This document shows positions 23-30,095 of a DNA stretch of 37,266 nt, piece after piece. The DNA is from a virus (Duplodnaviria > Caudoviricetes). The notes under the pieces were generated by a model, which was given only the letters and a program-made list of their open reading frames with translations, was not told where the DNA came from and ran no database searches. Position numbers and translations under genes: made by a program. Within the stretch, counting starts at the first letter, position 1. Every line of letters begins with the position of its first letter. The stretch lies in the IMG/VR virus record IMGVR_UViG_3300016666_000029, positions 1 to 37,266 of that record; one strand, 5' to 3'.

Positions 23-131
23 CTTCTTTGGTGGCCTCGACTGCGTCATGTCGTTTCCAAACTAGGTCAGTCGCAACGTGCGCAGACCCCAATAACTCCA
101 GCGCCAGCGTCAATGCTTCTTTATCGGTCAT
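1..131 (-). CDS. 5' part of a hypothetical protein spanning the circular junction (continues at 37244..36908; about 155 aa in total)
   Basis: ATG at 131 overlaps the glutaredoxin stop (ATGA). MTDKEALTLALELLGSAHVATDLVWKRHDAVEATKEALAQPEQ joins in frame to EHFALKHRIAE. Confidence 0.8.
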   Translation of the reverse strand, partial: MTDKEALTLALELLGSAHVATDLVWKRHDAVEATKEALAQPEQ

Positions 132-367
132 GGTTTATCTCCAACCTGTTTCAAAGCAGCCTGTAACCCTGCCAAACCACCTACTCTTTGGTCATTTATG
201 AAGATTTGAGGCAATCCACGCACATTTGGATAAGCAAACTCAAATGCTTTACGGACTGAAGCATCGTCCATGTCTTGCTCAATAAACCTTAAACCCTGAG
301 ATTTAAGAATTAGTTTTGCAGTTACGCAATTAGGACAACCCTTTTTTGTGTATAAAAAGATGTTCAT
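128..367 (-). CDS. Glutaredoxin / NrdH-like redoxin
   Basis: IFLYTKKGCPNC active site and LPQIFIND..VGG; start reassigned to the ATG at 367. Confidence 0.88.
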   Translation of the reverse strand: MNIFLYTKKGCPNCVTAKLILKSQGLRFIEQDMDDASVRKAFEFAYPNVRGLPQIFINDQRVGGLAGLQAALKQVGDKP

Positions 368-742: not shown

Positions 743-1169
743 ACTCAAGACACTCTTTGACGCAAATATCCACACCAGGGTTTGAGCAATAAACCTTTGT
801 TACATGGATGTTCACAATCTGAGAATCATCTCTGTAAACCACTCCATTCATCCCATCTTCTACGGATTTCAAAATATTTGATGCATCTGGCTTCTTAATT
901 GGCTTCTCAGAGCCATTATTTATGGCCTCTAAGCGTTTTTTTGTGCATGACTTAGGGATAGGTACTCTGATATACAAATAAAGCGATACAGGCGTTTCTA
1001 GTGGCTCGGAACTTCCAATCGCTTGTTTGGCAGCTTCTTTGATTAGGGCTTCATATGTTCTTGTTTTCTCTGGGGTATAGGCTTGGACAAAGTTGCCACG
1101 CTTTGCATATCTAGCCCTTTGTTTGCCAACAGGATTAGCGTCTACTTTGAAATTAACCATGAAAGTCAT
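741..1169 (-). CDS. rusA: RusA-family Holliday junction resolvase
   Basis: P.GKQRAR, KKPDASNILKSVEDGMNGVVYRDDSQIV catalytic motif; ATGA coupling to the methylase stop. Confidence 0.88.
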   Translation of the reverse strand: MTFMVNFKVDANPVGKQRARYAKRGNFVQAYTPEKTRTYEALIKEAAKQAIGSSEPLETPVSLYLYIRVPIPKSCTKKRLEAINNGSEKPIKKPDASNILKSVEDGMNGVVYRDDSQIVNIHVTKVYCSNPGVDICVKECLE

Positions 1170-2023
1170 TTCAAGATTCTCCATGCTGTTGCAGCACATA
1201 ATGGGACTTGTCCATTACCAATGGCTTTAAGTCTGTCCACCCTAGCGGCCACCCCATTAGCCACTCGACCCATGTTGGGTTCAGTTGACCACCATTGCCT
1301 GCTCCCATTAGACGAGCCTCTTCCACTGTTGTGTTTTTGTTCAACAAATCCCAACTCCCACTCCCGCCACACATCCCCTTTGTTCTTGGTGTCGGCCAAG
1401 TAAGAACTGCTGTGCTTAGACTCGTTTGAGTGCCTTTCTTGCCTTCTCTGCGAATCTGTAGACCTTGCCTGGCCTCGCTGTGAACTGGTGTAGGCCAATT
1501 CCCCAACGATCCACATCCTATCTCTTTGGTGTGGGGCATTAACATCGGCTGCTCCCATAACAGTCCATTTACAGTCATACCCCATTTTGGTAAGGTCTCC
1601 AACGACTCTTGTTCCTCCTCGAGTAGTGAGCATTGGGGAATTTTCCACGAAGACGAAATGTGGTCGTACTTCGCTAACCACCCTCGCCATTTCGTGCCAC
1701 ATTCCAGATCGTTCTCCATCAAGTCCATCGCCTTTTCCGGCAGCTGAGATGTCTTGGCATGGAAACCCTCCCGATACGACATCAACAATTCCTCTCCAAG
1801 GCTTTCCGTCAAAGGTTTGTACATCATCCCAAATCGGGAAAGGCGGGAGAAGTCCGTCATTTTGTCTGGCGCACAGTACGCTAGCTGGGTAGGGTTCCCA
1901 CTCGACTGCACAGACTGTTCTCCATCCAAGCAAGTGTCCACCAAGGATTCCACCGCCTGCTCCTGCGAAGAGAGCGAGTTCATTAAGGCTTTGCTGATTA
2001 ACCAAGTCATTCAATTGTTCCAT
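1166..2023 (-). CDS. DNA (cytosine-5)-methyltransferase, catalytic (alpha-like) chain
   Basis: Motif I LFAGAGG, IV GGFPCQDIS, VI FVENS, VIII PHQRDRMWIVG, X RLKAIGNGQVP; no clear motif IX; exact start uncertain. Confidence 0.92.
   Translation of the reverse strand: MEQLNDLVNQQSLNELALFAGAGGGILGGHLLGWRTVCAVEWEPYPASVLCARQNDGLLPPFPIWDDVQTFDGKPWRGIVDVVSGGFPCQDISAAGKGDGLDGERSGMWHEMARVVSEVRPHFVFVENSPMLTTRGGTRVVGDLTKMGYDCKWTVMGAADVNAPHQRDRMWIVGELAYTSSQRGQARSTDSQRRQERHSNESKHSSSYLADTKNKGDVWREWELGFVEQKHNSGRGSSNGSRQWWSTEPNMGRVANGVAARVDRLKAIGNGQVPLCAATAWRILK
1171..2010 (-). CDS. Overlapping-frame partner (beta-like) chain of the C5-methyltransferase
   Basis: 279-aa open alternative frame; ATGA-coupled to the upstream gene's stop; WPTP repeats and motif-IX-like GQLNPTWVEWLMGWPLGWT. 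Confidence 0.72.
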   Translation of the reverse strand: MTWLISKALMNSLSSQEQAVESLVDTCLDGEQSVQSSGNPTQLAYCAPDKMTDFSRLSRFGMMYKPLTESLGEELLMSYREGFHAKTSQLPEKAMDLMENDLECGTKWRGWLAKYDHISSSWKIPQCSLLEEEQESLETLPKWGMTVNGLLWEQPMLMPHTKEIGCGSLGNWPTPVHSEARQGLQIRREGKKGTQTSLSTAVLTWPTPRTKGMCGGSGSWDLLNKNTTVEEARLMGAGNGGQLNPTWVEWLMGWPLGWTDLKPLVMDKSHYVLQQHGES

Positions 2024-2233: not shown

Positions 2234-2333
2234 GGTCACCAGTAAGTTCTAAAGCCTTGTTTATCAGATAAAGCGGAACATTCTTTCCATCTTTTACCTT
2301 GTCTAACAGTTGGTGTGCTTCAAAGTAGTTCAT
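2226..2333 (-). CDS. 35-aa hypothetical protein (not in the ORF track)
   Basis: MNYFEAHQLLDKVKDGKNVPLYLINKALELTGDLE fills the gap between neighbouring genes. Confidence 0.6.
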   Translation of the reverse strand: MNYFEAHQLLDKVKDGKNVPLYLINKALELTGDLE

Positions 2334-2802
2334 GCTTAAATTTCTTTTCTAAGAAATAAGACCAAATTGCACCACCAGAAACTTTGGCGATAAATTGAAG
2401 TGCTACGATTTCAGGCATCAAAACGCCAAATGCTATGGTTGGGAACAACAAAGAATCCACGGCAGCACCAGCAGTATTCGAGATGTTTGCTCGTTTAATC
2501 CATGATCCAGTTGTTTTTACAAATACTGCCCAATCAACTAAAGCGGCAACTAAGAATGACACGGCAGAAGCTACTGCAATCATGCCCGCAGCAGGGTTTA
2601 ACAAGTAAGTTAAAGCCCCTGTGCCAATAATCAGACCGCCCATTTGCCATATTTTAAGGCGTACATGAAGCCAGTCCCTAAGTGTCAGGTCTAGTCCAAT
2701 AAATAAAAATGCGTTGATTGGGCTGATTGCAGGGCCAAATGTAGCCACCAAAAGGTTTGCCAAGGTCATTGCCACGGCATAAATCATTAAAGCAAAAATC
2801 AT
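2320..2802 (-). CDS. VUT-family (YhhQ/DUF165-like) membrane transporter, putative queuosine-precursor uptake
   Basis: Multi-TM protein with AN..V, IGLDLTLRDWLH, R...SN..GAAVDSLLF..IAFG and Q...KV motifs; ATGA-coupled start at 2802. Confidence 0.75.
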   Translation of the reverse strand: MIFALMIYAVAMTLANLLVATFGPAISPINAFLFIGLDLTLRDWLHVRLKIWQMGGLIIGTGALTYLLNPAAGMIAVASAVSFLVAALVDWAVFVKTTGSWIKRANISNTAGAAVDSLLFPTIAFGVLMPEIVALQFIAKVSGGAIWSYFLEKKFKHELL

Positions 2803-3539
2803 AAAAGTGTTTCCTGTTCCATTGGTTGATAAAAATTCCATTGAGAAGGAGCATTGAATGCCTCGATCCTAGAACGCATGATTTGCGCCCTTGCTTCCTT
2901 TGTAGGCGGCAAATAATTACCATGCTTCCAATGCACATCAATGCCTACATTCCTGCCAATATTGGTGCTGTCGGCTGATGAAAATGGAAGTTTGGTAAAT
3001 ATTGCAGGGTCTAGCATCCTCAAACCATGCAGTTTGCAAGCAGGTCTTCCCATGTCATCACAAATAACCCGCATTGCCTGGCTCATCTTGACCCACCAAA
3101 GAGATGTTCCAACTGTGGAGAACTCGCCAGAACTTCCAATACAAACCCGAACATAGGTGTTTGCCAGTTGTTCTAGTCTTTCAAGGGACTCGTGCATATG
3201 CCAAACTGGTGCGCCAAACCATGTCGGAAGTGGGCAGTCTTTCAACAAAGCATCATTGTCTGCCTCATTCCCATCGATTACATCAGGAATCACGGCAAAG
3301 TCGCAAGAAGGTACTTTTTTCAGGTCTAGTGACCAGTCATAGAAAGGCTGCCAGTCTGTAATTGGCTTGCCTTGCTTCCAAGCAGAGAATGCTCCATTGT
3401 CTATTGCGAATGACTGGCAAACCTCTATGGCTGATGCAAGTTGGTCAGAGTGAGCAAATGATACAAAAGCATGACCACCCTCTATTGCCTTAACAGCTAC
3501 TGTGGCAGGAGTTATTGGTAAACCATGATAGTGGATCAA
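2799..3539 (-). CDS. TGT-fold (DpdA-like) putative DNA base-exchange transglycosylase
   Basis: IDNGAFS, IPDVI, PVWH, CIGSS, LHGL and SADS occur in the order of TGT barrel motifs; no Zn-binding C-terminal module. Confidence 0.6.
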   Translation of the reverse strand: MIHYHGLPITPATVAVKAIEGGHAFVSFAHSDQLASAIEVCQSFAIDNGAFSAWKQGKPITDWQPFYDWSLDLKKVPSCDFAVIPDVIDGNEADNDALLKDCPLPTWFGAPVWHMHESLERLEQLANTYVRVCIGSSGEFSTVGTSLWWVKMSQAMRVICDDMGRPACKLHGLRMLDPAIFTKLPFSSADSTNIGRNVGIDVHWKHGNYLPPTKEARAQIMRSRIEAFNAPSQWNFYQPMEQETLL

Positions 3540-4300
3540 GATTTACTCCTTAATTGAGCCATTGCCTGTCTGATATGGTCTGGCATTGGCGTTGCTTTTT
3601 TGGCATCTTCAATAATCTTGGTTAAAGCGGGGTCTGGTTCATTTGAAGGTGGAACTGTAGTCCTGATGTTGTCGGCAGGATTTCCTTTGATCTCAAAAAC
3701 ATCTTGCCAACCAGAAGTGATTGATTTCTCCAAGACTAACTTAATGTCCTGACCATTGGTTCTAAACCGACTTAATTTGTCAATTAGAAGTTTGATGGCG
3801 TAGTCAGTTGGCGGCTTCTTGATGCGCTTTCTCATTTCCAAGAATTGCTCCCAAGTTTCCTTTGGAATCCAATCTGGCAAAACAAAGGCAACGCTAGTTG
3901 CTTTCTCTTTTATTTGGTTATTGGTTATTGGTTTATGGTTATTGGTTGCTATTGGGGTAGCATTAGGGGGGCTATTAGCCTCCCCATTGGGTGGTGTTCC
4001 CCACCTCTTGGCCGCCCCTCGTTTACCCGCTGCTGAAAACTCTTTGTATTGTGCAATTTGCTTGTCAGCTCTAGGGTTTACAAAGCCATCTGGAGTTGAG
4101 AGAAAGAACTCATTGAGTACTGTTAAAACATCTTCCTCATGGTCACGCATTCCGATCTGACGAGCAACATCTCGGTGTTTGATAGGTTGTTCGTGTAAGA
4201 AATAAAAGTCAAGCAAGCGCCTGTACGCCAAGTCTTCGTAGTGCGAAAGATGGCGTGTGTGACTCATGTAGTCACCAATGTGAAACTGGTAATAATGCAT
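3536..4300 (-). CDS. YdaU/DUF1376-family replication initiator
   Basis: MHYYQFHIGDY..HT.HLS..ED.AYRRLLD.Y N-terminus; AGKRGAAKRW linker; LPDWIP...W..F...RK C-terminal domain. Confidence 0.85.
   Translation of the reverse strand: MHYYQFHIGDYMSHTRHLSHYEDLAYRRLLDFYFLHEQPIKHRDVARQIGMRDHEEDVLTVLNEFFLSTPDGFVNPRADKQIAQYKEFSAAGKRGAAKRWGTPPNGEANSPPNATPIATNNHKPITNNQIKEKATSVAFVLPDWIPKETWEQFLEMRKRIKKPPTDYAIKLLIDKLSRFRTNGQDIKLVLEKSITSGWQDVFEIKGNPADNIRTTVPPSNEPDPALTKIIEDAKKATPMPDHIRQAMAQLRSKS
3905..3990. other. Candidate replication origin (short repeats inside the initiator gene)
   Basis: Tandem TTATTGG/TTGGTTA units at about 3911-3955, next to an AT-rich tract, as in lambdoid origins inside the initiator gene. 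Confidence 0.4.
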
Positions 4301-4328
4301 TTTCAGACCCAAACATCGACCCTAAGAA

Positions 4329-6729: not shown

Positions 6730-6905
6730 CACTACCACCTCATTCAAAGATTAGTTACCCATCTGTCTCCAACAAAGACTTTAAATGGGAATCTGGTTCT
6801 GATGTCCAAGCACTATGGAGAAAGCATGGCTGGACTCCACCATCCGAGAGAATGATTCCACCACCACCAGAGAAGTTTCAAGAACCTTTAAGGAGAACAA
6901 GATGA
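6720..6905 (+). CDS. Hypothetical protein
   Basis: DVQALWRKHGWTPPSE; ATGA-coupled to MazG. Confidence 0.65.
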   Translation: MQITLPPHSKISYPSVSNKDFKWESGSDVQALWRKHGWTPPSERMIPPPPEKFQEPLRRTR

Positions 6906-7210
6906 GTTACGCTCAAATTGAGATGCAAATAATCCAATGGGCAGAAGCTCGTAAGATTATTCCCAATAGCAATCCAGAATCTCAGCTGCTCAAAGCAGTA
7001 TCTGAAATGGGAGAATTAGCAGATGCCACGATTAAAAAAGATCGGGAAGCGATTATTGATGCTGTTGGCGATGTCATGGTATGTCTGGTTAATTATTGCG
7101 CTCTACAAGACCTGAATCTGGTAGACTGTATGGAAGTTGCATACGATCAGATCAAAAATCGTAGGGGTACTCTTTTGCCAAACGGAGTGTTCCAGAAAGA
7201 ATCTACTTAG
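6902..7210 (+). CDS. MazG-like nucleotide pyrophosphohydrolase
   Basis: QLLKAVSEMGELAD...IIDAVGDVMV...AYDQIKNRRG; start reassigned to 6902. Confidence 0.85.
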   Translation: MSYAQIEMQIIQWAEARKIIPNSNPESQLLKAVSEMGELADATIKKDREAIIDAVGDVMVCLVNYCALQDLNLVDCMEVAYDQIKNRRGTLLPNGVFQKEST

Positions 7211-7346
7211 CAAGTAAGTAAAGACCCACATTTGAAAATGCGTACCCTGCGTACACAATAGCCATATGTGGGTTATCTTTCCATAGCTGTTCACCAGCTA
7301 TATAAGCATAGATTGCCCCTGTGAGAATAATGAGCCAAGAACTCAA
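7203..7346 (-). CDS. 47-aa two-TM membrane protein (not in the ORF track)
   Basis: TTG start overlaps the upstream stop; MSSWLIILTGAIYAYIAGEQLWKDNPHMAIVYAGYAFSNVGLYLLAK. Confidence 0.6.
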   Translation of the reverse strand: MSSWLIILTGAIYAYIAGEQLWKDNPHMAIVYAGYAFSNVGLYLLAK

Positions 7347-8323
7347 AATTCGCTCACATCGATGACTTCACCACGAAACTCAATCTGTCCTTCATAGAAC
7401 TTATGGATCAGTTCAGGCCACAGAAGTTTCCCATTAAAGAAACTGAGCATTGCAAACCCTGATCTGTGGTTATTTGGATTTAGCTCGCCATAGGTAAATT
7501 GTGGGCCATCTGGTTCTGCAAGAGTACCAGTATCTACGCCATATCTGTTTCCGTTGTAGTCACTAAATGGCGTAACTTTGAGAGAGTGCAAATGTCCAGT
7601 CACAATAGAAACCCCCGCATTAACAGTATTATTATGAGTAGCGTGAATACCACCTTTATAGCGATGCTTCACGATAACCTGAGGAGTGGGCCAACAAGCC
7701 CAACAGAACTCCCAATTGGGAATGTGATCTTCTAACTTAAATCCTGCAACTTCTTTAAATTGTGGCGCATGATTAGCCAACTTGCTAGCAAATCTTGAGT
7801 CATGGTTTCCAAATGTAAACACTAGCTTTACATTGTGTCTCTCAGCTTTGGCTGCTTCCTCAATCTCACCCAACATTCCCTGACAAGCCTTTAACTCCTG
7901 AATAACAGAGACTTGATGATCAGATGGGTCATAACGAGATATAGACGATCCATCAAAGGCATCGCCATTACAGATCACGGCTTTAGGTTTAAACTCTTGA
8001 ATAGCCCATAAAAGCCCTTTAAAGGCGGTAGAGCGTTGACCAGGTATGAAGTGAGCATCCGAGAAGACTAAAACTACGCCATCTTCTATGCCAAGATCAA
8101 TCTGTTTTAAAGGTGAATGTGATTTAGGGCGTTTATCGTAATAGGTAGCACGAACATCATCTGATGCTAGCTTTATGTTGTAGTGATTTTCAATCCATCG
8201 TCTACGCAAGAATACAGCCCTTGTATGTATTCCTAAATGCTTGCCAACTGCTGATGCAGACCTTAATTCCATCCAAATCTTGATGAACTCTGCGTCTGTG
8301 CAAGTTTGATTATGAGCGCCCAT
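7343..8323 (-). CDS. Calcineurin-like metallophosphoesterase with N-terminal HTH-like region
   Basis: SDAH, NGDAFD, GNHD and GHLH motifs; start reassigned to 8323. Confidence 0.85.
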   Translation of the reverse strand: MGAHNQTCTDAEFIKIWMELRSASAVGKHLGIHTRAVFLRRRWIENHYNIKLASDDVRATYYDKRPKSHSPLKQIDLGIEDGVVLVFSDAHFIPGQRSTAFKGLLWAIQEFKPKAVICNGDAFDGSSISRYDPSDHQVSVIQELKACQGMLGEIEEAAKAERHNVKLVFTFGNHDSRFASKLANHAPQFKEVAGFKLEDHIPNWEFCWACWPTPQVIVKHRYKGGIHATHNNTVNAGVSIVTGHLHSLKVTPFSDYNGNRYGVDTGTLAEPDGPQFTYGELNPNNHRSGFAMLSFFNGKLLWPELIHKFYEGQIEFRGEVIDVSEF

Positions 8324-8684
8324 TCGATTCCTTGAAGAGTAATTGCTCAAGCAAGTTAATGACCCTGTGTTCTTGCATTTCCACCTCTTCTTGAGAAGAT
8401 TTAGGGTCTTGTGCAACAGTCATTAGGTCGTGAAGCATCACATGGAGCAATTCATGCAAAGCTGTCTTGTCTAAGGACTCAGGCGTGATCTTCTCTGCAC
8501 CAAAGTCACCCAAACGATAAGTCGCTAATCTGGCATTCTCATTGAACTCCACAGAAGCCATTGCTTGCTTTGCAGGCTTAGAGCCTTTCTCTATTCTCCA
8601 GTCACCCAGAGATAGTGTTTTCTGCCATTTCTTCACACATTCTGCAAAGAATTCAGCATCCTGTTGAGTTGGAATGTTTGACAT
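8310..8684 (-). CDS. Small HEXXH zincin-like metallopeptidase
   Basis: ALHELLHV motif with a downstream EH. Confidence 0.65.
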   Translation of the reverse strand: MSNIPTQQDAEFFAECVKKWQKTLSLGDWRIEKGSKPAKQAMASVEFNENARLATYRLGDFGAEKITPESLDKTALHELLHVMLHDLMTVAQDPKSSQEEVEMQEHRVINLLEQLLFKESNGRS

Positions 8685-25356: not shown

Positions 25357-27342
25357 TTATCCTTTATCTGGGAAAGCAGAAGATGGTACTGTAAAGTTTG
25401 ATGTGTACCGAGCCACGCCTTTGGTGATTCGTAAATCGTCTATGTAGCCAAAATAAGGCCCGATATTACCCGCCGCAGAAGAACCAATCAACAAATATGA
25501 ATCAGTAAAATTGGTTGTGGTTGTGTTTGATCCAGCGCTAGTTCCGTTAATCCAAATTGTCAAAGTTCCGCTTGAACGAGTCACCGCAAAGTGATACCAA
25601 GTGTTTGTAGAAAAAGTAAAAGAGCCATTCAAAATCCCACCTACTGCCGCAACATATGGGATAGTTGACCCGTTAATACCGATCCTAAAACCAGTTGTTG
25701 TACCACCAGAACGGAAGTCAATAATGTTGTAATCAGTAGACGATGTTAATTGAGTAGGATAGACCCACATTTCAACTGTAAAGTCACCTGTGTTAAATGC
25801 TCTGATTGGATTAGGCGACCCTGCCGCTTGTAACCAATCACCTGTCCCATCAAAATACATCGAGCCAGTACCATACTTTTTAACGCTTGTAGAAATCTGT
25901 GCATTGCCCACAGTTTCTAAGTCGTTCATCATGGCGTTGTCTAAGATGCCAGCGTTGGTGTTATTTAGTAACAATGATGTGCCTGATATGGCTGTTAGCG
26001 GTGCTGTTGGTGGGGTGAAATTCGCTGTATAGACTGCCGATGCAACTTCCCTAACATTAGAAATGTAGCCATTTAACGGATTAACACCTGCCGCCCCAGA
26101 ACGTGCAACAGCACCTACGCCAAGAGTTACCGATGACGATGTATTGGTCGTGTTTGTACCTTGCCCATCTAACACACCATTTAGATAAAACTTCACATTG
26201 TTTGTGCCGCTTCCGTTGCGAACCATTGCAACATGATTCCACTGGTTAAGTGGCAACGTAGATGTGCTGTTAAATTGCAATGATGTGCATTGAACTTCAA
26301 TGTTTCCAGCGGCAATCATTACAAGTCCGTAGCCAACATTGGTGTCCGCTTTATGAACAATCGTTCTTGCATTTGCGGATGTTGTTGGAACATAAACCCA
26401 TGCCTCAACAGTAAAGTCACCAGCAAAATCTAAAGCACTTGCTGTGGCAACACTTAAATAATCCCCACTACCATCAAAGTACCCAGAGCCACCAATCACG
26501 CTTGTGGAGTAGGCAGTTGTAGGGCTAAATGGGCTGAAGCGTTGGACGCTTACATCGCCATTCTTTGTAATAGTGAAGGCGTTTGAACTGTTGTCAATAA
26601 AACGATTGCTTTGGCAAGTCAACAACGATGTGTTGGTGATTGCTGTCAGAGGCGTTGTGCTTGGTGTAAACGATCCCGTATATAAAGCCGTACCCTTGAC
26701 TAAACGGGCGTTTGATAAATAGCCAGTCCCGTAATAAGCACCATCTTGGCGACCGCCAAAAGAAAGCGCTGATGTTCCTGCGCGAATTGTTCCACCAGCA
26801 TTAGACGCAACAGAAACACCATTTACATAAAGTGTATCTGTAGCACCATTACGAACCCATGCAACATGTTGCCAAACATTTGGTGATACTGCCCCAGCAG
26901 AAGATGTAGTGTCACCAGTAGATGATGAACCATTTGAAGATGTGCTTGTACCAATAATTCCACTAGAAGTGGTAATTGCCATCTGGTACTCTAAATCGCC
27001 TGCGTTCCACTTTGAGAAAAAGTGAAAATATGATGTTGCCGTGGTGTAGTAAACCCACGCCTCCATTGTAAAGTTTCCGCTATTTAATTGAAGTGCGGCA
27101 TTGTTGGCAACATCCAACCGATCCCCAGACCCATCAAAGTAATTAGACCAATTAGACCCATAAGGCGAGAATGTGCCTTGGGTTGTATTGCCGTTGCGGG
27201 TAATGGTGAAGTTGTTTGAGGATGAGTCTACAAAAGTATTGTTCTGAGCGCCATTAGTCCCATTACCATGTAACAACATCGTTACATTTTTAAACTGAGG
27301 GTCTTTAGCGTCTACGCTACCTGATTTAGAAGCTGCAAACAT
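25357..27342 (-). CDS. Triple LamG / concanavalin A-like lectin receptor-binding protein
   Basis: Starts MFAA; three repeats of YFDG.GD.L...FT.E.WVY...W.H.A..R...GYI...R.....A.YT..FT.P. Confidence 0.85.
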   Translation of the reverse strand: MFAASKSGSVDAKDPQFKNVTMLLHGNGTNGAQNNTFVDSSSNNFTITRNGNTTQGTFSPYGSNWSNYFDGSGDRLDVANNAALQLNSGNFTMEAWVYYTTATSYFHFFSKWNAGDLEYQMAITTSSGIIGTSTSSNGSSSTGDTTSSAGAVSPNVWQHVAWVRNGATDTLYVNGVSVASNAGGTIRAGTSALSFGGRQDGAYYGTGYLSNARLVKGTALYTGSFTPSTTPLTAITNTSLLTCQSNRFIDNSSNAFTITKNGDVSVQRFSPFSPTTAYSTSVIGGSGYFDGSGDYLSVATASALDFAGDFTVEAWVYVPTTSANARTIVHKADTNVGYGLVMIAAGNIEVQCTSLQFNSTSTLPLNQWNHVAMVRNGSGTNNVKFYLNGVLDGQGTNTTNTSSSVTLGVGAVARSGAAGVNPLNGYISNVREVASAVYTANFTPPTAPLTAISGTSLLLNNTNAGILDNAMMNDLETVGNAQISTSVKKYGTGSMYFDGTGDWLQAAGSPNPIRAFNTGDFTVEMWVYPTQLTSSTDYNIIDFRSGGTTTGFRIGINGSTIPYVAAVGGILNGSFTFSTNTWYHFAVTRSSGTLTIWINGTSAGSNTTTTNFTDSYLLIGSSAAGNIGPYFGYIDDLRITKGVARYTSNFTVPSSAFPDKG

Positions 27343-28181: not shown

Positions 28182-30095
28182 TTAGACCATAAACCATGCA
28201 TAAGCATTGCCAGCACCACTACTTCCACCACCTGAAGAGGCAATTGTAATTCCACCAGAAGAGTTAGTGATTGTTATATTGCTACCAGCAGTCAAAGTAG
28301 CCGCTGTATAACCAGTTCCGTTGCCAATTAACAACTGTCCATTAGTAGGAGTAGTCGTTACTCCAGTACCGCCATTAGCAATAGGCAAGGCAGTACCGCT
28401 ATATGTCATAGCCAAAGTACCAGAAGTGGTAATTGGGCTTCCTGAGATACTAAATATGGATGGAACAGTAGCCGCTACAGAAGTAACAGTACCAGTATTA
28501 GATGTGTAACCATTAGGGTTAGTTGCTGCATAAGCACCTAATGAACTAAGTGCGCCAGCAGCAGTTGTTGCTCCTGTACCGCCATTGGCAATAGGAAGCG
28601 TACCATTAACACCAGCAGTCAGAGAAACTGTATTGTTTTCCCAGAGTGAAGTGCTTGAGTTATAGATTAAAGTTTGAGCATTAGATGGAGTTTGAGCAGA
28701 CACATTGTGTAGCTCATCCATTTCATAACCATTTTGAACCTTAACAAATAACTTACCTTGTGTTGGGTGTGCGTGTTCAACAATAGCGACATAAACCAAA
28801 TGATTTGGAGCATAAGGCTTAGTAGCCGTATAAGTTCCTGCTGTAGTTGGACTTAAATAAAGTTGAGCGCCATCTGTATATGCAGATGTGTCCATGCCAG
28901 TAACCAAACCAATAATGGTTACATAACCATTAGAGTTATTGGAAAGATCAGCACTCATCACACCCAAAGTTTGTGCAGATGTTGCATCGCCACTTGCTAA
29001 CGCTTTTGTAACTGTTGGTATTTGACCTGTAGCACCATTGATATAAACAACAGTACCTTTTGTTAAGGTTGCTCCAGTAGAGTTTCTTACTTGGCAGATA
29101 ACATTGGTTGTAGAAGCTGCTACTGCAACAGATAAATCAGCCACACCAGATGCTGTAGAAACGCTCACAGAGCCATCTGTTGAAGTAATGCTACCAATAG
29201 CATTAACATCGGTATAAGTAAGCGAGACAGCACCAGTTTGACTGTTTACGCTTGTAACCAAGTTAGTCTGGTCAATCTTCTGCCAAACAGAACCATTGAA
29301 AAGCAACCAATCGCCAATCTGCCAATCAGTAATCCCATTTAGATTAGTCGATCCAGCAGTAGAAACAATGTAGTAATAGCCATTTGTGCCAGTACTAGAA
29401 GCAAGAGTAGGCGTGTTGGTAGAGGCATTCCATGTTCCTTGATAACTTAGTCCACCAGCAACAGAAGCCCATGAAGTGCTTGTTCCATTGGTAGTTAAGA
29501 ACTTACCTGAGTTACCAGTTTGGCTAGGAATCAGCGTATTGATCTGCGTCTGCAAAGAATCCAAAGTATCTAAGACAGATTGAGAAGTGCCACCGCCATT
29601 GGTGATAACTTTAATCTGGTTAGACAACTCCATTGGCATGATTTCGCCAACATTGATCTCATTGCCGTTAGACAATGTAATAACCAATCCACCATCAAAA
29701 TCTAGGTAAGCATTGGTTACTGATACGCCATCAATACCATCTCGTCCGTCTTTACCAGCAGGGCCTTGAGCGCCTTGCCGACCAGGTGCGCCATCCTTGC
29801 CAGGCTTTCCATCTCGTCCATCTCTACCATCTGAGCCGTTGATACCATCACGACCATCTTGAATGGATGCAACTCGTTTTTCAATGAGATTGCCTAAATC
29901 GTCATAGCGACTACGGATGTCTGACTCAATTTTCTTTAAGGCTTGAACAACAAGATCAACATTCTCGCCAATCTTCTGTTTCTGGACTGCCCTTGCTTGA
30001 GCTACTGATGTTTTAACAGAGTTAAGAATGGCCTCCTGCTGTTCGGGAGTCATGCTTTTTAGGATTAACTCCTTGACCAGACTTTCAGCGTCCAT
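28182..30095 (-). CDS. Collagen-repeat fibre protein (head or portal-associated fibre)
   Basis: Coiled-coil N-terminus, about 14 Gly-X-Y triplets, YQGTWNASTNTPTL, VTSVNSQTGAV and two LPIANGGTG repeats. Confidence 0.72.
   Translation of the reverse strand: MDAESLVKELILKSMTPEQQEAILNSVKTSVAQARAVQKQKIGENVDLVVQALKKIESDIRSRYDDLGNLIEKRVASIQDGRDGINGSDGRDGRDGKPGKDGAPGRQGAQGPAGKDGRDGIDGVSVTNAYLDFDGGLVITLSNGNEINVGEIMPMELSNQIKVITNGGGTSQSVLDTLDSLQTQINTLIPSQTGNSGKFLTTNGTSTSWASVAGGLSYQGTWNASTNTPTLASSTGTNGYYYIVSTAGSTNLNGITDWQIGDWLLFNGSVWQKIDQTNLVTSVNSQTGAVSLTYTDVNAIGSITSTDGSVSVSTASGVADLSVAVAASTTNVICQVRNSTGATLTKGTVVYINGATGQIPTVTKALASGDATSAQTLGVMSADLSNNSNGYVTIIGLVTGMDTSAYTDGAQLYLSPTTAGTYTATKPYAPNHLVYVAIVEHAHPTQGKLFVKVQNGYEMDELHNVSAQTPSNAQTLIYNSSTSLWENNTVSLTAGVNGTLPIANGGTGATTAAGALSSLGAYAATNPNGYTSNTGTVTSVAATVPSIFSISGSPITTSGTLAMTYSGTALPIANGGTGVTTTPTNGQLLIGNGTGYTAATLTAGSNITITNSSGGITIASSGGGSSGAGNAYAWFMV

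What the first reader, a model, noticed from the sequence alone, without database searches (positions are those of the whole stretch)
2320..3539. Minimal two-gene DNA base-exchange module: TGT-fold enzyme coupled to a VUT/YhhQ-like transporter, with no biosynthesis genes
Seen: the 246-aa protein has DNGAFS, PDVI, PVWH, IGSS, LHGL and SADS in the order of the tRNA-guanine transglycosylase barrel motifs (DSGGF, substrate-binding Asp, QG, GG, HxxG, nucleophile Asp). It lacks the Zn/tRNA-binding module. It is ATGA-coupled downstream of the replication initiator and upstream of a multi-TM protein with VUT-type motifs. I recognise no folE/queD/queE/queC in this apparently complete genome. Established: DpdA proteins are TGT paralogues that insert 7-deazaguanines into DNA, and YhhQ imports preQ0/preQ1. 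Inference: the phage imports a scavenged precursor and swaps it into its own DNA as anti-restriction protection. The divergent pocket residues may mean a different base or an uncharacterised DpdA clade.
Basis: partly seen in the sequence, partly recalled or inferred. Interest (0 to 1): 0.82.

Follow-up and report, generated by a model that had tools for sequence, protein, structure and literature searches.

The report
Phage DpdA plus deazaguanine importer
A complete freshwater phage genome carries a known type of guanine-swapping enzyme (a "singleton" DpdA) overlapping a small YhhQ/VUT-type membrane protein and no genes to make the base; the pair likely imports a 7-deazaguanine and writes it sparsely into phage DNA, a layout already catalogued in other phages but still untested.

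Summary
The 246-aa ORF folds as a TGT-type barrel (best matches Cap10, arcTGT, TGT, DpdA). It keeps the three Asp residues and the DpdA-type His. The downstream ORF is a Vut_1 protein. No folE/queD/queE/queC/queF was found in the complete genome.

The enzyme is not a new clade. It is a published "singleton" DpdA (PHROG 887), 32% identical to that of Salmonella phage 7-11 and 39% to Pantoea phage MED16, with the same main pocket residues. Those two phages carry only sparse dADG (about 9 and 33 per genome), and MED16 DNA was still cut by the enzymes tested. Broad anti-restriction armour is therefore doubtful. DpdA+YhhQ phages without synthesis genes are already in Hutinet 2019's table, and this scan found the pair before on other DNA.

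Added here: the cassette is accessory (1 of 20 close relatives). The same enzyme clade swaps among three neighbours: VUT, an 80-aa QueF-L-like protein and a Cys-less QueD. A 99%-identical enzyme has the mini-QueF-L between the two genes. Several cultured coliphages carry the same pair and allow a direct test.

Verdict: new member of a known kind, modest interest.

The parts
2799..3539 (-). Singleton-type phage DpdA (TGT-fold DNA transglycosylase homologue), 246 aa; D47, F51, D86, H114, L173, D190
   Evidence: PHROG 887 E 1.7e-69; fold matches; 39% to MED16 and 32% to 7-11 DpdA, 29% over 161 aa to CAjan DpdA; residue conservation
2320..2802 (-). Short VUT/YhhQ-family membrane protein, 160 aa (start at 2802 rather than 2841)
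   Evidence: Pfam Vut_1 E 6.8e-9; PHROG 4899 shared with CAjan gp41 and phiLM21 gp26; the same Met starts the gene in loci where another gene lies upstream
2799..2802 (-). ATGA stop/start overlap coupling enzyme to transporter; the place where relatives carry an 80-aa QueF-L-like gene bounded by TTATGA on both sides
3536..3550 (-). AGGAG ribosome-binding site (3550-3546) and TTGA overlap with the upstream DUF1376 replication gene
   Evidence: sequence; Pfam DUF1376 and PHROG 'primosomal protein' for the upstream gene

Best explanation
The two overlapping genes form a swappable accessory cassette in the phage's replication operon, in which the VUT protein likely raises the cell's pool of a 7-deazaguanine base and the DpdA likely exchanges that base for a small number of guanines in phage DNA. 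Shown here: fold, catalytic residues, family membership, coupling, absence of synthesis genes and patchy distribution. From literature on the family: Asp95/Asp256 double displacement in bacterial DpdA (equivalent to D47/D190), preQ0/preQ1 import by E. coli YhhQ, and dADG in two phages with this enzyme clade. Inferred: that this protein acts on DNA, that the product is dADG or dPreQ0, that the level is low (tens of sites per genome), and that any protection is narrow, covering particular sites rather than the whole genome.
For: TGT/DpdA structures rank top. In 85 homologues from HMMER searches D47, H171, D190 and S191 are 85/85 and D86 and H114 are 84/85. They map by motif and spacing to DpdA Asp95, Phe99, Asp130, His181, Leu236 and Asp256 (PMC10164549 passages). 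D47, F51, D86, H114, L173, R174 and D190 are the same in the 7-11 and MED16 enzymes, whose phages hold 50 and 354 dADG per 1e6 nt. Three different deazaguanine-pathway-type genes recur next to this enzyme clade: VUT, an 80-aa protein whose model matches archaeosine synthase QueF-L (Z 12.4, rmsd 1.3, 80 aligned), and a PTPS/QueD-like gene. 71 of 73 VUT-seeded loci have the enzyme within 1.5 kb, and the other two are cut short upstream. The genome has no tRNA genes.
Against: No activity has been measured for this protein or its VUT. In the passages read, dADG in 7-11 and MED16 was not tied to the phage dpdA by a deletion. dADG at about 1 per 1000 nt is also what bacterial Dpd systems make, and the MED16 host is unsequenced, so a host origin is not excluded. 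MED16 has none of the three partners, and none was found for 7-11, so partners are not needed for dADG. In CAjan, deleting yhhQ left modification unchanged. The VUT is far below the curated YhhQ cut-offs (18.5 vs 252 bits; 15 vs 51 bits). The mEp021 VUT homologue occurs with no PHROG 887 gene in its genome. An unrelated aldolase ties with DpdA in the fold search. The host is unknown.
Confidence: 0.6

Rival explanations
1. With the importer present, modification is dense (CAjan-like, tens of percent of G) and gives broad protection from restriction.
For: Same PHROG family as CAjan DpdA, which modifies about 30% of G. The low levels in 7-11 and MED16 come from phages without a VUT and could be supply-limited. 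The genome strongly avoids G-containing palindromes (observed/expected 0.66 for 4-mers, 0.44 for 6-mers), which points to heavy restriction pressure.
Against: The closest measured homologues give 0.02-0.13% of G and MED16 DNA is cut. Environmental precursor is scarce (inference). 20 of 21 related loci lack the cassette and show the same palindrome avoidance (0.67 and 0.48), so avoidance is lineage-wide and says nothing about the cassette's effect.
Confidence: 0.17
2. The cassette is a counter-defence that binds or drains 7-deazaguanines needed by deazaguanylation-dependent immunity (type IV CBASS, QatABCD), with DNA modification a side effect.
For: Cap10 bound to an amido-deazaguanine-modified protein is the top fold match (Z 15.3, tied with arcTGT at 15.2). 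Cap9/Cap10 and the conjugation are essential for that defence (bioRxiv 2025.04.06.647259 passages). Low DNA levels would fit a sink.
Against: An importer would add precursor rather than remove it. Cap10 also keeps the TGT catalytic residues, so the fold match does not discriminate. No direct evidence.
Confidence: 0.1
3. The enzyme acts on host tRNA (queuosine-type or at another position) to tune translation, as the PHROG label 'queuine tRNA-ribosyltransferase' suggests.
For: TGT fold; VUT proteins serve the tRNA-Q pathway in bacteria (PMC5372724 passages).
Against: No Pfam TGT match; no Zn module; DpdA-type His; homology to CAjan DpdA, which is required for DNA modification; no phage tRNAs; location among replication and DNA-methylase genes.
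Confidence: 0.07
4. The pair handles a purine analogue other than the known 7-deazaguanines.
For: Clade-specific N48 and R174 differ from CAjan DpdA. The COG1738 family is described as heterogeneous. A Cys-less QueD paralogue in other phages was proposed as a CDG decarboxylase.
Against: The main pocket residues are unchanged across all partner classes and match the dADG-bearing phages.
Confidence: 0.06

Closest known systems
Gamma-proteobacterial 'singleton' phage DpdA (Hutinet et al. 2019 group 3, PMC6884629; cluster DpdA/TGT_1 in PMC8306585): Salmonella phage 7-11 gp032, Pantoea phage MED16 gp38, SEN1, BTP1, SfI, HK106, PEAT2
   Same: 32% and 39% identity over nearly the full length, same PHROG 887, same main catalytic and pocket residues, no precursor-synthesis genes
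   Different: 7-11 and MED16 have no detected VUT neighbour; here the enzyme is coupled to one. PEAT2 is listed as DpdA-only in the 2019 table but has the VUT gene next to it.
DpdA + YhhQ phages without synthesis genes in Hutinet 2019 Supplementary Data (Sinorhizobium phiLM21, Clostridium CDKM15, halophage eHP-6)
   Same: Same two-gene layout. In phiLM21 dpdA overlaps yhhQ, followed by a DNA methyltransferase near replication genes; its YhhQ is 32% identical to this VUT, same PHROG 4899.
   Different: phiLM21 DpdA is another subfamily (PHROG 1279; no significant alignment). CDKM15 and eHP-6 were not compared.
Escherichia phage CAjan DpdA1 cluster (folE, queD, queE, queC, yhhQ, dpdA; PMC7544227)
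   Same: DpdA 29% identical over 161 aa (E 2e-11); transporter gp41 27.5% identical and the same size (159 aa)
   Different: CAjan makes preQ0 itself and modifies about 30% of G; its yhhQ is dispensable. This phage has no synthesis genes.
E. coli YhhQ (COG1738) preQ0/preQ1 transporter
   Same: Same Pfam family; the VUT profile finds it at E 3e-6
   Different: 221 vs 160 aa, weak pairwise identity, far below NCBIfam equivalog cut-offs; substrate not tested

Membership tests
TGT/DpdA superfamily | (beta/alpha)8 barrel most like TGT-family structures | tested here: met
   five TGT-family chains among the top nine rows, four on top; an aldolase ties with the fourth
TGT/DpdA superfamily | Acid/base Asp, base-reading Asp and nucleophile Asp conserved | tested here: met
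   D47 85/85, D86 84/85, D190 85/85; mapped by motif, strand order and BLAST to CAjan DpdA, not by residue-level superposition
Phage DpdA1 (PHROG 887), singleton subgroup | Sequence homology to listed members and the conserved DpdA His | tested here: met
   H114 84/85
Phage DpdA1 (PHROG 887), singleton subgroup | No preQ0/G+ synthesis genes in the genome | tested here: met
   0 matches in a complete genome, controls rang
Phage DpdA1 (PHROG 887), singleton subgroup | Inserts a 7-deazaguanine into DNA | not testable with these tools
   needs LC-MS/MS; only homologue-bearing phages were measured
Canonical tRNA-guanine transglycosylase (PF01702) | Pfam TGT match and Zn-binding CxCxxC module | tested here: not met
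Vut_1 / COG1738 (PF02592) | Pfam match above curated cut-off, hydrophobic membrane protein | tested here: met
   (36.7 vs 27.2 bits); three segments pass a strict hydropathy cut, as for E. coli YhhQ
YhhQ equivalog (NF008406 / TIGR00697) | Score above the equivalog cut-off | tested here: not met
   18.5 vs 252 and 15 vs 50.95 bits
Vut_1 / COG1738 (PF02592) | Imports preQ0, preQ1 or queuine | not testable with these tools
   needs complementation or uptake assay

The most novel reading that the evidence does not exclude
This large DpdA clade is an amide-specific enzyme: it inserts free 7-amido-7-deazaguanine (ADG, the QueC intermediate) directly into DNA with no DpdB or DpdC. Phages tune its supply with interchangeable one-gene accessories at the same cassette slot: a mini importer (this genome), an 80-aa QueF-L-like protein that would hydrate preQ0 to ADG through its Cys thioimide, or a Cys-less QueD. 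This would explain the dADG of phages 7-11 and MED16, left open in the papers read, and define a sparse, site-level phage DNA mark with a role other than genome-wide armour.
Probability: 0.25. Interest if true: 0.62.

Novelty: new member of a known kind. Interest (0 to 1): 0.27.

Why it matters
The singleton DpdA group is large: 7,822 of 7,999 scored candidate proteins were homologues, and an estimated 2,300 viral stretches match. Its product, target and benefit are left open in the papers read. The pair itself is not new. The value here is a sharper prediction (sparse dADG rather than dense preQ0) and ready test systems: cultured coliphages such as Phleasolo and LHE71 carry the same VUT + PHROG 887 pair. 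If the enzyme takes ADG directly, it would answer how these phages get dADG without DpdC.

Tried and rejected
Sequence searches of the PDB with the enzyme, its 85-sequence profile, or the mini-protein profile gave nothing meaningful. Pfam and NCBIfam do not recognise the enzyme or the mini-protein. Foldseek ranked generic TIM barrels first and did not discriminate. The whole-length MAFFT alignment with E. coli TGT was unreliable after the first motif and was not used. Palindrome avoidance was tried as a test of protection and rejected as uninformative: it is the same in relatives without the cassette (CAjan control 0.90 and 0.69). A PAPS-reductase-like gene near many relatives was rejected as a partner: its position varies and the window lacks it. 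Pocket residues do not track partner type. No Rfam match (no preQ1 riboswitch) and no tRNA in the genome. The host could not be assigned: the capsid has only distant cultured relatives, and the nearest prophage enzymes (69-72%) are in Acidovorax, Variovorax, Achromobacter and Pseudomonas. Laid contigs showed the stretch intact in the probable source run and only fragments of relatives in RNA-labelled runs, which is no evidence of expression. The ESM Atlas QueF hit for the mini-protein scored 0.88, a lead only. No complex prediction was run.

Full report
The sequence. The window is a complete 37.3-kb phage genome (22-nt terminal repeat; classed direct terminal repeats and 100% complete), found in freshwater metagenomes. 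On the minus strand a DUF1376/primosomal replication gene (3536-4312) is followed by the 246-aa ORF (2799-3539), the 160-aa membrane ORF (2320-2802), a 70-aa ORF, a C5 methyltransferase and RusA. The replication gene overlaps the enzyme by TTGA, and the enzyme overlaps the membrane gene by ATGA.

The enzyme. It has no Pfam or NCBIfam hit but matches PHROG 887 at E 1.7e-69. An AlphaFold2 model built on 85 homologues has pLDDT 94 and eight barrel strands. Against 48,161 PDB chains the top rows are Cap10 (Z 15.3, rmsd 3.7, 232 aligned), arcTGT (15.2, 4.7, 230), bacterial TGT (13.5, 3.8, 220) and S. Montevideo DpdA (13.4, 3.4, 214). An aldolase ties at 13.4 and other TIM barrels follow closely, so the fold alone is suggestive. 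The residues add the specificity. PMC10164549 (passages) names Asp95, Phe99, Asp130, His181, Leu236 and Asp256 in DpdA. By motif, spacing and BLAST to CAjan DpdA (29% over 161 aa, E 2e-11) these correspond to D47, F51, D86, H114, L173 and D190, conserved in 85, 63 (83 with Tyr), 84, 84, 80 and 85 of 85 homologues. This mapping is not a residue-level superposition. There is no CxCxxC Zn motif, but CAjan's validated DpdA shows none either.

It belongs to a described group. tblastn finds 106 of 50,697 phage records, including 7-11, SEN1, BTP1, SfI, HK106, PEAT2 and Athena1. Hutinet et al. 2019 (PMC6884629; passages; part 1 of 2 of one supplementary table) list these as DpdA-only phages. That paper already proposes host or exogenous precursor and notes YhhQ in some phages; its table lists phiLM21, CDKM15 and eHP-6 with DpdA and YhhQ only. 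In phiLM21 the two genes overlap in the same order; its YhhQ is in the same PHROG 4899 but its DpdA is another subfamily. Two homologue-bearing phages have been measured. 7-11 (32% identity) has 50 dADG per 1e6 nt. MED16 (39%) has 354 per 1e6 nt and its DNA was cut by the tested enzymes except two Dam-sensitive ones (PMC8306585; part 2 of 8 and passages). By my arithmetic that is about 9 and 33 sites per genome. The main pocket residues are the same in those enzymes. Caveat: in the passages read no deletion ties that dADG to the phage gene, and bacterial Dpd systems make dADG at about 1 in 1000 nt.

The transporter. It passes the Pfam Vut_1 cut-off, is the same size as CAjan gp41 and 27.5% identical to it, and lies far below the YhhQ equivalog cut-offs. 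E. coli YhhQ imports preQ0/preQ1 by an indirect assay, and the family is heterogeneous (PMC5372724 passages). CAjan yhhQ is dispensable where synthesis genes exist (PMC7544227 passages). No QueF, QueC, QueD, FolE or radical SAM gene was found in this genome.

Co-occurrence. Among the 80 closest viral loci (best of 597; 84-99% identity; many near-copies), 56 have the VUT alone, 17 have an 80-aa gene between enzyme and VUT, 7 have only the 80-aa gene, and none lacks both. Among 80 loci from bacterial genome contigs (best of 200), 8 have the VUT, 16 more have only the 80-aa gene and 56 have neither, 10 of these with short flanks. 71 of 73 newly fetched VUT-seeded loci have the enzyme nearby (7 repeat loci not counted). 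Of 21 phage records with this VUT, adjacency to the enzyme is visible for eight distinct phages (ECO111 5-P, PEAT2, Tbat1_6, Opt-79, Phleasolo, RCIP0319, LHE71, AB3P2). mEp021 has the VUT with no PHROG 887 gene; the rest were not checked. Both orders (enzyme-VUT and VUT-enzyme) occur. The cassette is accessory: 1 of 21 terminase-related loci spanning the replication region has it, as does 1 of 20 whole records (1 of 6 near-complete). Both genes are under purifying selection.

Interchangeable neighbours. The 80-aa protein models at pLDDT 96 and matches archaeosine synthase QueF-L (Foldseek top ten rows; Z 12.4, rmsd 1.3 over 80 residues). All 109 collected sequences keep an N-terminal Cys motif. 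72 of 74 new loci seeded with it hold the enzyme. It is absent from this genome. The nearest tree neighbour, 99% identical, carries it between the two genes, and both upstream genes end in TTATGA, so a clean loss or gain gives the window's junction; the direction was not tested. A third neighbour, a PTPS/QueD-like gene with no Cys before its HGH motif, flanks the enzyme in 14 loci with 66-82% identity. On a FastTree tree of 134 representatives of 391 enzymes, partner type changes at least 51 times, while D47, N48, D86, I88, H114, G135, H171, R174 and D190 are invariant. These loci were partly seeded by those motifs, so the HMMER-derived counts are the fairer measure. The simplest reading is one enzyme with one chemistry and optional supply genes.

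Mechanism and function. Most likely the VUT adds precursor and the enzyme exchanges it into DNA through a covalent D190 intermediate, at low density. Whether the base enters as ADG (a QueC intermediate) or as preQ0 later hydrated is open. Broad anti-restriction is the weak step: the measured homologues argue against it, and palindrome avoidance is lineage-wide and uninformative. 7-deazaguanine can also be a liability, since GrwAB restricts such DNA (PMC12137116 passages), which could favour sparse marking and a patchy cassette (inference).

Novelty. The enzyme family, the pairing and the salvage idea are in print. I found no paper that tests the pair, or that describes the 80-aa partner, in nine full-text searches of the open library; subscription papers, including a 2024 review that I only recall, and most supplements were not seen and may bear on this. 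Cui et al. 2023 (PMC10516641) was read as passages only. Earlier notes of this scan report the same pair, the trio and the QueD partner in other genomes. I found the 80-aa gene before reading them and looked at the QueD partner afterwards. Verdict: real, well supported, a new member of a known kind; interest 0.27.

Noticed in passing
window 1166-2023 and 1171-2010 (-): A C5 cytosine methyltransferase is encoded in two almost fully overlapping frames (285 and 279 aa). The first has the Pfam catalytic domain and a motif-X-like end; the second hits PHROG methyltransferase families and ends in a motif-IX-like stretch (motif labels recalled). This resembles the M.EcoHK31I alpha/beta layout (PMC2836561 passages). 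Both frames recur together in relatives.
   Followed up: partly
L003:1225-1467 and over 100 related sequences; absent from the window: 80-aa QueF-L-like T-fold protein (PHROG 37496, unknown function) almost always beside this DpdA clade; also in cultured phages Epa33 and Mae-JY30.
   Followed up: yes
L322:4195-4590, L205, L206, L210, L308-L311, L319-L321, L349, L351: QueD/PTPS-like gene without the catalytic Cys next to close relatives of the enzyme; a possible analogue of the proposed CDG decarboxylase DpdL.
   Followed up: partly
whole window: Strong avoidance of restriction-type sites: CCGG 4 vs 48 expected, ACGT 10 vs 124, GGACC/GGTCC 0 vs 26 each, CACTG/CAGTG 7 vs 62 each, several 6-bp palindromes absent (both strands counted). 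Shared by relatives without the cassette.
   Followed up: partly
L509:2456-2968 (phage mEp021): A VUT homologue of the same type sits between DNA methyltransferase genes with no PHROG 887 DpdA in the genome, so these small VUTs may have other uses.
   Followed up: partly
window 6815-7210 (+), 7343-8416 (-), 128-364 (-): MazG-like pyrophosphatase, metallophosphoesterase and glutaredoxin-like genes; common phage accessories with no link shown to the cassette.
   Followed up: no
window 25357-27342 and 28182-30095 (-): Virion-region genes with three laminin-G/lectin domains and a collagen-like repeat, placed between portal and capsid genes.
   Followed up: no
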